Virus record (IMG/VR): IMGVR_UViG_2548876959_000021
Span: 1-26,803 of that record
Reading direction: 5' to 3' (one strand)
DNA: 26,803 nt
From: a virus
Lineage: Duplodnaviria > Heunggongvirae > Uroviricota > Caudoviricetes
Of this stretch, positions 6,001-9,000 are shown in pieces (within the stretch, counting starts at the first letter, position 1; each line of letters begins with the position of its first letter). Made by a program: the position numbers.

Positions 6001-9000
6001 GGAACTCTTTGGCTACCGGAGTGCGAGCAAACATCGCGATTAGGTGGGCACCGCGTAGTGAGAAAACTCGCACTTTTTTGCGATAATTTCCTGAGGTACT
6101 CACTTCGAGTACCTGAGTCATTCCGGCGCTAAACTCATCGCTATACTTGTTATAAATCATTGTTACTGCACGACTATTTGCGTATTTAAGTGCAGATGCA
6201 ATATTAGATGATGTAAACCAAACACCATGCATATCACGGGTGGGCACCAACTCAACTCCGTGGAAGTTGTAATCTGATTTTGCTACAATATTCATGTTAG
6301 TTTCCTTGCATACGGTTACTGACATAGAGGCCCGGTTTGTGTTCGCGCACTGCCGGGCTTCACTATTTTTACTGGGCATTAGCTCTTTCCTCTCTCAGGC
6401 TTTTAGCCAGTCGCTGCACAATCGCAGAGTTGATAGAAATTCCATCCATTTCAGCAACACGTCTAATCTCCTCCTTCATTCGCGCTGGCAAACGAAGCTG
6501 GAAACTTTGACTTTTACGACCTGTGTAAAGCACATCTTTCATAAGTAATCCTCCCACAATGATACCAACTTGGTTCTAGAACCAATTTAACACCATTTAT
6601 TTTGATGTCAAGTTGGTGCTATTGTTTAGCGAACATCTTTACGTTGAGGTCATATGAGCAAGTTCCCTAGTCATGAAATGGATAGGTTCAATATCAGGCT
6701 TCCTGCAGGAATGCGGGATGCTATAGCTGAACGAGCCAAACGTAACGGCAGATCAATGAACTCAGAGATTGTTCAGATACTGGAAGATGCCTTGAATGCA
6801 GAAAATACACTCGGGGAAATAGCAGATAAAATCAACAGCGTCTCGGTTCCGCTAAATGTTGATGCGCTAGTTCAACTTCAAGCCCAGGTTATCGCCATGC
6901 AAAAAGAAATACAGGAAAAGTTCAGAGAGCAGAACGAAAAGTTGAGAGAACTGCTAAACAAAAAAACCACCTGACGGTGGGTTAATTTTTGCTTTTTTGG
7001 ACCATATTGACTACTCATAAAATGAGATCAATATTTAATCGCCCAATAACGGGTGCATGTTGAGGTATATCATGGCGAAAAAACCAGGTGAAAACACAGG
7101 AAAAAACGGCGGAATATACCAAGAAGTTGGCCCGCGCGGAGGTAAGAAAGACAATTTTGCCACCGTCAAGGACAACGAAAGGCTTCCGCCAACAACAAAG
7201 CCAGGTCATGGCTGGGTATTAGATAAGCGAACTCCAGACAGCAAAAAGTAATAATCAAGCCGGGTCACTCCGGCTTTTTGATATGTCGCTCGCAGAACTC
7301 AACAAGCCTGCTCATTAAGTAGCAGTAAGTCTCGTTGGCTCTTCCTGGTTCAACATCAACGCCGACCCTTGAGCAGATATCGAATGCCATGTGAGCGCAC
7401 TCATGGGCAATAGTAGATAGTTTGCCATTGAACACACCTATCACATGCAAAACACCATTCTCGCTGCTCATTGTATGAGACGCTCCGTTGGCATCCGAGT
7501 CCTGCACGTCCACGCCAAGTTTTTGATGCAGGCGTTGCCATTCTGGAAAGTCTCTGCAAAACACAATTGTACCGCTCTCAAAGAGCGGAACGAGCATTTT
7601 TGGTACGTTTCCAATGTTAACTTTTTTCATGGTATCCTGCTCAAAACTAAGGAGGTTGGTGTGCTTGAATGGTTTCTGTTGGCTGCATTAGTCGTTTCTG
7701 GTTTGGTGTATGAGTATCGAATGCACTCTCTAACAAAAAAAATAGGAATTCTAGAAAACGAATATTGTGCTCTCAAATCCTCACTGGAACGTGAGCAAGG
7801 GGACTTAAAAATCTCTCTGTCTAGCATTGAGCGTTCTATAGAGAGCTTAGAGGATAAGGTTGATCGTATAAAGAATGAGGATATTCATGATATTAAGGAC
7901 GACATATCCTTCTTAAAATCTTGGTTGAAAAATGTTGGGAAAATTGCCACATCAACACGAGATAAGCTCAATCCATCCATGGATGACTAATTACTCCTGT
8001 GCCATTCCGCTTAGCGATGCCACAATTCCAGCTCTTGCTAAACGCTGGAACTCTTCGTTTCCTAGTGCCTCGCGTATTGCTTTTACGGCGGCCTTATTTG
8101 CCATAAATCTGCGTTCCGCCGCCGCTAATGCGCCATCACTTGCCCCAACCTTAACTGCCTTTGTTGCCTCTTGAACAGCCTTTTCAATAGCGTAACGACC
8201 GCTTCTAGTTGCGGATAATTTCGCTATCGCTCCTTTTGCCATTGCATCAATTGCCCCACCTGCAGCGCCACCCGCTATTGCTCCAATAACGCCTCCTCCA
8301 GAGAACCCTGCGATAGTGCCAGTAGTTCTAAAAGCGCCAGACAATGCGCTCTCTAAAACTGGATGAAGGCCATTCTCAAGAGTGCTAATGGCTGGCATAG
8401 ATCGCCCTGTCTGTTCAACATATCGAAGTGGCTTTGTTGCTGCTCGTGCAAGTTCTCCGTATGAACTTGTAATCCTGCCAAGTTCTGGAGAATATCGACT
8501 AATTGCCTTCACGTTTTGTGGGGTAAGAATAGTCGCGATATGCTTAATTCCAGCCTCTTCAGACTTACCTCCGCGTACCCCTTGCGACATTGCATCTTGT
8601 AATATTGATGCAATTGCTGGCGCGCGTTCCGACTCAGGTAGGGCGCTTATTATTTTATGGAACTGACCTGTTCCACTTTTTGCTGAACCCTGTAACGCCT
8701 TAGATCCATTAGTTACCAACTGATCAGTTGCAAGGTCTCTACCAAACGCTGCTTCAGCCTGTTCTTGTGCTGTAAATCTTGCCTTTGACAGATCATTAGC
8801 TTTTTGCCAGTCATCAAGAAAACCGCCATTTTGAGCCATTATGCGCATATCTTCCGTTGCTGCATCACGAAGCTCAGCCATGCGCCTTGCCGTATTTGCC
8901 TCACCAGACCTTATATACTTCTGCTCTGCGTCAGCAAGTTTACTTCGCCATGCCTTCATGGCATCAAACGTGATTCCTTTTTTACCAGTTTTAGCATAAG

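What the first reader, a model, noticed from the sequence alone, without database searches (positions are those of the whole stretch)
7640..7990. AT-rich moron encoding a membrane-anchored coiled-coil protein in the sieA-equivalent position
Between the last ejection gene and the immI genes, on the strand opposite to the late operon, a 109-aa ORF has a very strong RBS (TAAGGAGG), a single N-terminal transmembrane helix and a long heptad-rich charged tail. Its GC content is clearly lower than that of the flanking structural genes. Small membrane proteins at this position in P22-like phages (for example sieA) mediate superinfection exclusion, so this is a candidate exclusion or defence determinant of unknown family.
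Basis: partly seen in the sequence, partly recalled or inferred. Interest (0 to 1): 0.5.

Follow-up and report, generated by a model that had tools for sequence, protein, structure and literature searches.

The report
hkcB membrane protein in sieA slot
The ORF is a real gene, hkcB of coliphage HK620, which encodes a small membrane-anchored helical protein plugged into exactly the genomic slot where phage P22 carries its superinfection-exclusion gene sieA, so it is a good but untested candidate for a new kind of phage-exclusion protein.

Summary
Window 7661-7990 (+) is a 109-aa GTG-initiated ORF behind TAAGGAGGT, convergent with ejection gene 16 (0-nt gap) and next to the immI genes. It is 98% identical to HK620 hkcB (annotated 'unknown' since 2001; PHROG 5962, no Pfam). 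It is a real gene (dN/dS 0.15-0.35). It has one N-terminal hydrophobic anchor, a significant heptad coiled coil (residues 20-66) and a conserved non-heptad C-terminal helix (W88, N91-V92-G93). AlphaFold2 gives a single 100-residue helix.

The family is tiny, enterobacterial, and always sits beside an HK620-class gene 16 in P22-like (pro)phages. It is absent from viable relatives, so it is accessory.

P22 DNA is 98% identical up to the shared RBS and GTG (83/85 nt in the fragment that suffices to express SieA), then unrelated. hkcB and sieA are therefore alternative cassettes in one 'socket'. In IMG/VR that 33-nt socket precedes at least 12 unrelated cassettes, 11 with signal or TM segments.

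HkcB is not homologous to SieA (hhalign 0.25%). The AT-richness comes from amino-acid composition (GC3 is not low).

Best reading: a prophage-expressed inner-membrane exclusion protein (confidence about 0.45). Function is inferred, not shown.

The parts
7576..7660 (+). 85 bp upstream of the start codon. This is the equivalent of the P22 fragment (putative PsieA) that suffices to express functional SieA from a single chromosomal copy.
   Evidence: 83 of 85 nt are identical to P22. Sufficiency of the P22 fragment is reported in PMC10883804. No consensus sigma-70 match was found on the + strand. The fragment contains a TGnTATCCT extended -10-like motif at 7630-7638 (read from the sequence; function untested).
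7628..7663 (+). Conserved 36-nt 'socket' or boundary block, CATGGTATCCTGCTCAAAACTAAGGAGGTTGGTGTG. It holds the start codon (CAT on this strand) and RBS of the divergent gene, and the RBS and GTG of hkcB.
   Evidence: Present with 4 or fewer mismatches in 47 of 60 hkcB loci, joined to at least 12 unrelated upstream sequences. Shared with P22 sieA. Its 33-nt core precedes at least 12 unrelated cassettes in IMG/VR.
7648..7656 (+). Shine-Dalgarno sequence TAAGGAGGT, 5 nt upstream of the GTG.
   Evidence: Conserved in all family members.
7661..7990 (+). hkcB coding sequence (109 aa plus stop).
   Evidence: 98% identical to HK620 HkcB AAK28903.1. PHROG 5962, E = 1.9e-61. dN/dS 0.15-0.35.
7664..7717 (+). 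N-terminal hydrophobic membrane anchor (residues 2-19).
   Evidence: Hydropathy 1.94 over 17 residues. Hydrophobic character is conserved across 7 divergent members although the sequence is not. No K/R precedes it in any member. Helical in the AF2 model.
7718..7858 (+). Heptad coiled-coil segment (residues 20-66).
   Evidence: 10 of 14 a/d positions are hydrophobic, p = 0.0007, reproduced in 5 divergent members. PDB sequence hits are only designed or generic coiled coils.
7856..7987 (+). Conserved C-terminal helical domain (residues 66-109; invariant E73, D80, W88, N91-V92-G93).
   Evidence: Alignments. Protein-level constraint: pS 0.27-0.77 against pN 0.07-0.23. Not heptad-phased.
7991..10159 (-). 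Gene 16 (HK620-class ejection / DNA-transfer protein, 722 aa), convergent with hkcB with a 0-nt gap.
   Evidence: PHROG 770, E = 4e-219. 95% identical to HK620 gp16. hkcB abuts this class in 61 of 61 IMG/VR loci.
7265..7630 (-). hkcC, the divergent neighbour (121 aa, invariant HECxH...E). It is not part of the hkcB unit: only 10 of 61 hkcB loci have it.

Best explanation
hkcB encodes a small bitopic inner-membrane protein. It has a short N-terminal anchor, a coiled coil of about 45 residues that probably drives oligomerisation, and a conserved C-terminal helical tip.

It is an accessory gene of P22-like prophages. It is probably transcribed in the lysogen from the same upstream DNA that drives P22 sieA, or together with mnt in other genomes, and translated from a shared strong RBS and GTG.

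It occupies the same recombinational socket next to ejection gene 16 as sieA. It most likely does the same kind of job by different means: it sits in the inner membrane and interferes with DNA delivery by superinfecting P22-like phages, for example by disturbing the gp20/gp16 ejection-protein conduit or a host partner of it.

Shown here: gene reality, architecture, the cassette swap at the start codon, accessory status, and the bias of the socket toward envelope proteins. Inferred: lysogen expression, membrane topology (weakly N-out/C-in), oligomerisation, and the exclusion function itself.
For: - Cassette swap. P22 is 98.2% identical to the window over 658 nt upstream, including 83 of 85 nt of the fragment sufficient for SieA expression. 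It shares the RBS and GTG, then drops to 30% (random) identity (PMC10883804).
- Mutual exclusivity. None of 61 hkcB loci carries sieA. A Serratia sieA lies beside the same HK620-class gp16, so both cassettes serve the same neighbourhood.
- Co-direction with mnt. In L014 the hkcB-like gene follows mnt on the same strand with a 36-nt gap, as sieA does in L081 with a 2-nt gap. mnt is a lysogen-expressed repressor.
- Accessory status. Viable phages with HK620-class gp16 (Bas106, Louie, Huey, Dewey, phiSG1) lack the whole region.
- The socket's 33-nt core precedes at least 12 unrelated cassettes, and 11 of them carry signal peptides or TM segments. SieA is the only characterised one, and it is an inner-membrane DNA-entry blocker.
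- Membrane anchor plus purifying selection on the protein.
Against: - There is no experimental datum on hkcB in any paper searched.
- There is no homology to SieA or to any defence family. Position is the only link to exclusion.
- No consensus promoter and no terminator were detected, and PsieA itself is only 'putative'.
- Of the 12 cassette families only one has a known function, so the slot could host envelope proteins with other roles.
- The topology signals are weak (C-flank net charge -1 to +1).
- SieA already excludes CUS-3, which has an HK620-class gp16 (PMC10883804; class assignment). There is therefore no obvious need for a class-specific substitute.
Confidence: 0.45

Rival explanations
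1. Lysogenic-conversion protein unrelated to phage defence. HkcB is a prophage-expressed envelope protein that modifies host physiology (envelope stress, division, colonisation or fitness) rather than blocking phages.
For: The socket hosts many unrelated small envelope proteins, including a YobH-like host-type small protein and several secreted proteins. All but SieA have unknown function. hkcB is found in 82 of 5,426 complete E. coli genomes, many of them clinical isolates.
Against: The family is confined to one slot of one phage group and is always fused tail-to-tail to gene 16. The only characterised occupant of the slot is an exclusion protein. No similarity to any host-interaction family was found.
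Confidence: 0.2
2. A different defence mode. HkcB is a membrane-tethered sensor or effector that aborts infection after DNA entry (for example by membrane depolarisation) rather than blocking entry.
For: Small bitopic coiled-coil proteins can oligomerise into membrane-active assemblies (my own knowledge). It has the same prophage-expressed context as above. A weak PADLOC hit to DpdH was found (E = 0.002, 16 bits).
Against: The PADLOC hit is at noise level and covers the TM plus coiled coil only. There is a single short hydrophobic segment and no partner gene is conserved, since upstream neighbours vary.
Confidence: 0.15
3. Role in the phage's own lytic cycle, for example protecting induced cells from re-adsorbing progeny, or modulating injection or lysis. 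HkcB would be an Rz-like membrane-anchored coiled coil.
For: The architecture resembles i-spanins. There are weak hits to Rz-like PHROG 739 (E = 0.07) and to the window's own Rz (E = 0.037 among 216 ORFs; identity of that ORF). sieA is reported to be up-regulated on induction (PMC10883804).
Against: The gene lies on the strand opposite the late operon and far from the lysis cassette, which is complete (holin, endolysin and Rz at 22543-23790). Viable relatives lack it. There is no positive N-terminus as in Rz. The hits are not significant.
Confidence: 0.1
4. The protein is incidental. What matters is antisense transcription across the gene 16 / gene 9 junction, or the DNA acting as a recombination boundary.
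For: No terminator separates hkcB from gene 16, so its transcript must run antisense into gene 16. The ant moron is thought to modulate read-through to the tailspike gene (PMC2629481). The 5' and 3' ends of the cassette are conserved DNA blocks.
Against: There is strong protein-level purifying selection with saturated synonymous sites, in both halves of the gene. Hydrophobic anchor, heptads and C-terminal motif are preserved down to 26-35% identity.
Confidence: 0.03

Closest known systems
HK620 HkcB (AAK28903.1) and its homologues in epsilon34 (gp14), CUS-3 (hkcB) and SEN22; PHROG 5962
   Same: 98% identical to HK620 HkcB and about 50% to the epsilon34 / CUS-3 / SEN22 type. Same length, same slot, same GTG start.
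   Different: Nothing: this is that gene. The window differs from HK620 only in having an intact immI region (Mnt-like, Arc, Ant) where HK620 has remnants.
P22 SieA (Pfam PF26849), an inner-membrane superinfection-exclusion protein that blocks DNA injection
   Same: Identical genomic socket: same upstream DNA, RBS and start codon, opposite strand to the late operon, convergent with gene 16. Membrane protein, accessory, confined to P22-like prophages (PMC10883804).
   Different: No sequence or profile similarity. One hydrophobic segment rather than three TM helices. No FxRYPxEAxxFNK motif. 109 aa rather than 164 aa. 0-nt rather than 19-22-nt gap to gene 16. Function untested.
Rz-type i-spanins (for example the window's own Rz, 22543-23010)
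   Same: N-terminal membrane anchor followed by about 90-130 residues of largely coiled-coil helix.
   Different: Similarity is not significant (E = 0.037-0.07). Not in the lysis cassette and no o-spanin partner. No basic residues before the anchor, so topology may be opposite. Opposite strand to the late genes.
Other small inner-membrane exclusion proteins of phages, such as T4 Imm and HK97 gp15 (recalled from my own knowledge, not tested here)
   Same: Small, membrane-anchored, phage-encoded and non-essential. They are reported to block DNA entry at the inner membrane.
   Different: No sequence relationship was detected by any library used. They lie in different phage groups and genomic contexts.
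PHROG 8100: a 109-aa 'MLEIIVLALGIS...' cassette found in the same socket beside P22-class gene 16
   Same: Same length, N-terminal anchor plus coiled coil, same socket. Weak match to the HkcB profile (E = 2e-5 among 116 sequences).
   Different: Lacks the W-x-x-N-V-G C-terminal motif. Pairs with P22-class rather than HK620-class gp16, with a 17-19-nt gap. May be an analogue rather than a homologue.

Membership tests
HkcB / PHROG 5962 | Full-length match to the family profile and to the type protein. | tested here: met
   PHROG 5962 E = 1.9e-61, residues 2-109 of 109. 98.2% identity to HK620 hkcB by tblastn.
HkcB / PHROG 5962 | Position: convergent with and abutting gene 16 in a P22-like genome. 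| tested here: met
   0-nt gap in the window and in 61 of 61 IMG/VR loci. 3-4 nt in the two most distant relatives.
SieA (Pfam PF26849) | Sequence or profile similarity to SieA. | tested here: not met
   No PF26849 hit at E <= 0.1. hhalign of the HkcB alignment against the SieA alignment gives probability 0.25%.
SieA (Pfam PF26849) | Polytopic inner-membrane protein with three or four TM helices. | tested here: not met
   HkcB has a single hydrophobic segment. The same crude scan gives three segments for SieA.
SieA (Pfam PF26849) | Conserved cytoplasmic motif FxRYPxEAxxFNK. | tested here: not met
   The motif is present in the SieA alignment (F145-K157) and absent from the HkcB sequence.
SieA (Pfam PF26849) | Located between genes 16 and 9 of a P22-like prophage, on the strand opposite the late operon. 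| tested here: met
   Same socket and same start codon.
SieA (Pfam PF26849) | Blocks DNA injection by P22-like phages. | not testable with these tools
   Requires plating, K+-efflux and DNA-entry assays.
Moron (independently expressed insert in a phage operon) | Present in some and absent in closely related genomes at the same site. | tested here: met
   Bas106, Louie, Huey, Dewey and phiSG1 have gene 16 followed directly by the tailspike gene. Other genomes carry other cassettes.
Moron (independently expressed insert in a phage operon) | Own promoter and terminator. | tested here: inconclusive
   No consensus promoter on the + strand and no terminator after the stop codon. A promoter is inferred only from 83/85 identity to the P22 fragment that expresses SieA.
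Moron (independently expressed insert in a phage operon) | Deviant nucleotide composition. | tested here: inconclusive
   GC 0.379 against 0.465 (5th percentile), but GC3 0.376 is not below gene 16's 0.339.
Rz-like i-spanin | Significant match to an Rz family, and location in the lysis cassette with an o-spanin. | tested here: not met
   PHROG 739 E = 0.07. Own Rz E = 0.037. The lysis cassette lies at 22543-23790.
XhlA (PF10779) | Score above the Pfam gathering threshold. | tested here: not met
   14.3 bits against a cut-off of 34.7.
Coiled-coil protein | Heptad periodicity of hydrophobic residues beyond chance. | tested here: met
   Residues 20-66, p = 0.0007, reproduced in 5 divergent members. 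Not met for residues 66-100.

The most novel reading that the evidence does not exclude
The 33-36-nt RBS/GTG block next to gene 16 is a conserved expression socket of P22-like phages into which unrelated small envelope proteins are swapped. At least 12 families were seen and only SieA has been characterised. The socket would thus be a diversity hotspot for determinants that act on incoming phage DNA delivery. HkcB would be the founding member of a bitopic coiled-coil class of exclusion proteins whose conserved WxxNVG tip engages the gp16/gp20 conduit or a host partner of it.
Probability: 0.3. Interest if true: 0.6.

Novelty: new variant of a known kind. Interest (0 to 1): 0.42.

Why it matters
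SieA is the only understood occupant of this slot, and its mechanism (blocking the gp16/gp20 ejection conduit at the inner membrane) was worked out only in 2024. Suppose HkcB and the other cassettes behind the same socket also exclude phages. P22-like prophages would then carry an interchangeable set of structurally unrelated inhibitors of one DNA-delivery machine. That would give several independent probes of how short-tailed phages cross the envelope, and a defined place to look for new exclusion genes. The test is cheap and uses existing strains: single-copy insertion with the native 85-bp upstream region, plated against HK620, CUS-3, P22 and the published ejection-protein hybrids. If instead HkcB has no anti-phage effect, the slot is a more general lysogenic-conversion site for envelope proteins, which would also be worth knowing.

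Tried and rejected
- Remote homology. Pfam, PHROGs, PADLOC and NCBIfam gave only coiled-coil noise (XhlA 14 bits, FlaC, BicD, ASRP 21 bits against a 300-bit cut-off, DpdH 16 bits). A profile search of 1.84 billion representatives found about seven true relatives and nothing with a known function. A PDB profile search hit only designed or GCN4-type coiled coils.
- Fold search of the AF2 model. A single helix gave 0 Foldseek matches, which is uninformative by nature. afdb50 was unavailable.
- Decoy hypothesis (HkcB mimics part of gp7, gp20, gp16 or gp26). HMM searches with the full-length profile and with the C-terminal domain against all 216 window ORFs found nothing except a non-significant match to Rz. 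Rejected.
- Exclusive pairing of HkcB with one gp16 class as evidence of a cognate target. HkcB is always next to HK620-class gp16. But sieA and three other cassettes also sit next to that class, and the 3' ends are physically fused. The link is explained by linkage and is not evidence of interaction.
- AT-richness as a mark of foreign origin. Rejected, because GC3 is not low.
- st313-td of BTP1 as a virulence gene in this slot. It lies next to the CI repressor instead. Rejected.
- Known RNAs in the window: none at Rfam gathering thresholds.
- Species-representative genomes. Neither the protein pattern nor the socket DNA was found, so no wider taxonomic picture was obtained from that collection.
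- Hofer et al. 1995 (PsieA mapping) is not held in the library.
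Full report
**What is there**

The window is an HK620/Sf6-type P22-like (Lederbergvirus) genome segment. It runs from an integrase through the tailspike, the 'ant moron', the ejection genes 16, 20 and 7, and the head and terminase genes to the lysis cassette.

At 7661-7990 on the + strand lies a 109-aa ORF that starts with GTG. TAAGGAGGT lies at 7648-7656, 5 nt upstream.

- The ORF is convergent with the 722-aa gene 16 on the minus strand. The two stop codons abut (TAATTA).
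- It is divergent from the 121-aa hkcC, whose ATG lies only 30 nt from the GTG.
- Further left are an orf59a-like ORF, a Mnt-like and an Arc-like ribbon-helix-helix repressor, and two antirepressor-like genes.

**Identity**

The segment is 97.8% identical to coliphage HK620. The ORF is HK620 hkcB (AAK28903.1, product 'unknown').

- It matches PHROG 5962 (unknown function) at E = 1.9e-61.
- It has no Pfam, PADLOC or NCBIfam family. The only hits are sub-threshold coiled-coil noise.
- The 2008 epsilon34 genome paper lists hkcB homologues in epsilon34 and HK620 as genes of unknown function inside the 'ant moron' (PMC2629481).
- I found no paper that tests its function.
- RefSeq annotates it as 'hypothetical protein'. 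Full-length copies occur in 82 of 5,426 complete E. coli genomes.

**It is a real gene**

Homologues at 26-68% identity keep the length, the GTG start and the architecture. Nei-Gojobori dN/dS is 0.15-0.35 with synonymous sites close to saturation. In the C-terminal 44 codons, pS is 0.27-0.77 against pN of 0.07-0.23. The strong conservation there therefore acts on the protein, not on the DNA.

**Architecture**

- Residues 1-17/19 are the only hydrophobic segment (mean Kyte-Doolittle 1.94). In seven divergent members the segment stays hydrophobic while its sequence changes.
- None of those members has a K or R before the segment. The C-terminal flank carries a net charge of -1 to +1. The positive-inside rule therefore weakly favours N-out/C-in, but the topology is not settled.
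- Residues 20-66 are significantly heptad-phased (10 of 14 a/d positions hydrophobic; p = 0.0007; p < 0.01 in five divergent members). Residues 66-100 are not (p about 0.2).
- AlphaFold2 on the family alignment predicts one continuous helix, residues 2-103, with mean pLDDT 86. As a single helix it has no meaningful structural neighbours.
- The most conserved part is the C-terminal tip, not the coiled coil. Across the whole family the invariant residues are L31, E34, L49, E73, D80, W88 and N91-V92-G93.

**Composition**

The ORF has GC 0.379 against 0.465 for the window, which is the 5th percentile of 330-nt windows. Its GC3 (0.376) is not below that of gene 16 (0.339). The AT-richness reflects a K/E/D/I/N/S-rich protein and is not evidence of recent foreign origin.

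**Distribution**

The family is very small.

- A word-indexed search of 5.8 billion proteins returned 26 clusters.
- An exhaustive profile search of 1.84 billion representatives found about seven true relatives.
- Members come from Escherichia, Salmonella and Klebsiella, plus one more distant prophage (L014).

Every context examined is a P22-like (pro)phage, and the gene always abuts gene 16:

- five sequenced phages (HK620, 611R6, CUS-3, epsilon34, SEN22);
- 61 of 61 IMG/VR loci, with a 0-nt gap;
- the two most distant relatives, with 3-4-nt gaps.

The neighbouring gp16 is always of the 'HK620 class'. P22 gp16 shares only residues about 40-190 with that class, and its C-terminal 420 or so residues are unrelated.

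Upstream neighbours vary. They include hkcC (10 of 61 loci), a 139-aa gene, a ClpP-like gene, and mnt.

Phages with an HK620-class gp16 but no accessory region at all have no hkcB: Bas106, Louie, Huey, Dewey and phiSG1. The gene is therefore dispensable for virion function and lytic growth.

**The key result: a cassette swap at the start codon**

P22 is 98.2% identical to the window over the 658 nt upstream of the ORF. That stretch includes hkcC, the RBS and the GTG. Identity then falls to 30%. The annotated P22 sieA start is that same GTG.

Leavitt et al. [quoted passage not shown] The window is identical at 83 of those 85 positions. This is the best available, though indirect, evidence that hkcB is expressed in the lysogen.

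No consensus sigma-70 promoter was found on the + strand, and no intrinsic terminator follows the stop codon. A TGnTATCCT extended -10-like motif lies inside the conserved block. I read this from the sequence and it is untested.

In L014 the hkcB-like gene follows mnt on the same strand with a 36-nt gap, as sieA does in a Serratia prophage with a 2-nt gap. This again points to prophage expression.

**The socket**

A 36-nt block, CATGGTATCCTGCnCAAAACTAAGGAGGTTGGTGTG (window 7628-7663), is present with 4 or fewer mismatches in 47 of 60 hkcB loci. It is joined there to at least 12 unrelated upstream sequences.

I scanned IMG/VR for the exact 33-nt core of the block. The block is followed by at least 12 unrelated cassette families:

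| Cassette | Occurrences | Features |
|---|---|---|
| HkcB types I and II | 27 | N-terminal TM plus coiled coil |
| 129-aa protein | 25 | signal peptide |
| 62-aa protein | 11 | two TM segments |
| 75-aa protein | 9 | two TM segments |
| 109-aa 'MLEIIV...' protein | 9 | TM plus coiled coil; weak HkcB-profile match, E = 2e-5 |
| SieA | 8 | three TM segments |
| 140-aa protein | 6 | soluble |
| 149-aa protein | 5 | N-terminal anchor |
| 116-aa protein | 5 | four TM segments |
| 99-aa protein | 4 | signal peptide |
| 106-aa protein | 4 | N-terminal TM |
| 68-aa protein | 3 | signal peptide, YobH-like |

- Eleven of the twelve families have a signal peptide or TM segment.
- Where the flank could be classified, the cassettes are convergent with gene 16 (P22 or HK620 class), mostly with gaps of 0-24 nt.
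- Apart from SieA and the YobH-like protein, all are PHROG 'unknown function' or unassigned.
- The CUS-3 record annotates two 'boundary sequence' features within its accessory region, so such conserved junction sequences have been noted in this phage group before.

**Is HkcB a SieA?**

No. There is no PF26849 hit. Profile-profile comparison gives probability 0.25%. HkcB has one hydrophobic segment rather than three, and it lacks the FxRYPxEAxxFNK motif. It is an analogue by position only.

sieA and hkcB never co-occur (0 of 61 loci). A Serratia sieA lies next to an HK620-class gp16 (58% identical to the window's). The two are therefore true alternatives for the same neighbourhood.

I tested whether the strict HkcB / HK620-class gp16 association might indicate a cognate target. 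Three other cassettes also pair with that class, and the hkcB 3' end and gene 16 3' end form one conserved DNA block. Physical linkage is a sufficient explanation.

**Mechanism**

Most likely (about 0.45): a prophage-expressed, oligomeric, inner-membrane-anchored protein that interferes with DNA delivery by superinfecting P22-like phages, in parallel to SieA. SieA targets the C-terminal regions of gp16 and gp20 (PMC10883804).

Rivals:

- an envelope lysogenic-conversion function unrelated to phages (0.2);
- an abortive-infection-type membrane effector (0.15);
- a role in the phage's own cycle, Rz-like (0.1);
- a purely transcriptional or recombinational role (0.03, contradicted by the purifying selection on the protein).

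A decoy mechanism (mimicry of an ejection or needle protein) found no support.

**Verdict**

However, the gene is a long-catalogued ORF, the AT-richness argument fails, and the function remains untested.
- The added value is the start-codon-precise cassette swap with sieA and the at least 12-family envelope-protein socket. Together they turn a vague 'candidate' into a cheap, well-defined experiment.

Noticed in passing
[not shown]
   Followed up: partly
window 7748-7776 (-), inside hkcB: The best sigma-70-like match of the region (TTGAGA-17-TAGAAT, 10 of 12) lies inside hkcB on the opposite strand and points toward hkcC. The 30-nt hkcB-hkcC spacer holds only two back-to-back RBSs, so each gene's promoter must lie inside the other gene or further away..
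   Followed up: no
window 7991-10159 (-) and L002, L011, L081, L084: gp16 is a two-part mosaic. Residues about 40-200 are 60-75% identical between P22 and HK620 classes, while the C-terminal 400-500 residues are unrelated. At least a third C-terminal class exists (L084). The last 15 or so residues of HK620-class gp16 (…GIVASLSGM…) and the hkcB 3' end form one highly conserved DNA block..
   Followed up: partly
L001 (HK620) and L011 (CUS-3) against window gene 16: PMC10883804 states that CUS-3 and HK620 gp16 are only 26% identical. BLASTP here gives 75% between the window's gp16 (95% identical to HK620's) and CUS-3 gp16 over the full length. This matters for that paper's argument about where partial SieA resistance of HK620 resides..
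   Followed up: partly
L086-L164 (IMG/VR loci with the socket block): At least ten further uncharacterised cassette families sit behind the same RBS/GTG block next to gene 16. They include a 129-aa secreted protein (PHROG 2651, as frequent as hkcB), 62-aa and 75-aa two-TM proteins, a 116-aa four-TM protein and a YobH-like 68-aa protein..
   Followed up: partly
window 4856-6379 (-) and 6654-6974 (+): The immI region differs from that of P22. Two antirepressor-like genes lie in tandem: a 236-aa protein with Bro-N plus P22_AR_C domains, and a 270-aa protein matching PHROG 1726. The Mnt-like repressor is 106 aa, with an Arc-type N-terminus and a long helical C-terminal extension. No sar-like RNA was detected by Rfam..
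   Followed up: no
L002:3660 (P22 sieA start) and window 7661: All cassettes behind the socket, sieA included, begin at the same GTG, 5 nt after AGGAGG. This supports the GTG (164-aa) start for P22 SieA, whose start codon is called uncertain in PMC10883804..
   Followed up: no
proteins P0022, P0023, P0024, P0031; locus L077: Database entries include chimeric or truncated hkcB derivatives. Examples are an unrelated non-membrane N-terminus fused to the last 44 residues, and frameshifted C-termini. These indicate recombination or decay within the cassette. Several gene callers also extend the ORF upstream to 134-181 aa..
   Followed up: no
window 7257-7276 (both strands): A GC-rich hairpin (AAGCCGGGTCACTCCGGCTT) with a T-run on the + strand lies between the orf59a-like ORF and hkcC. 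It corresponds to the bidirectional terminator tORF59A annotated in HK620..
   Followed up: no
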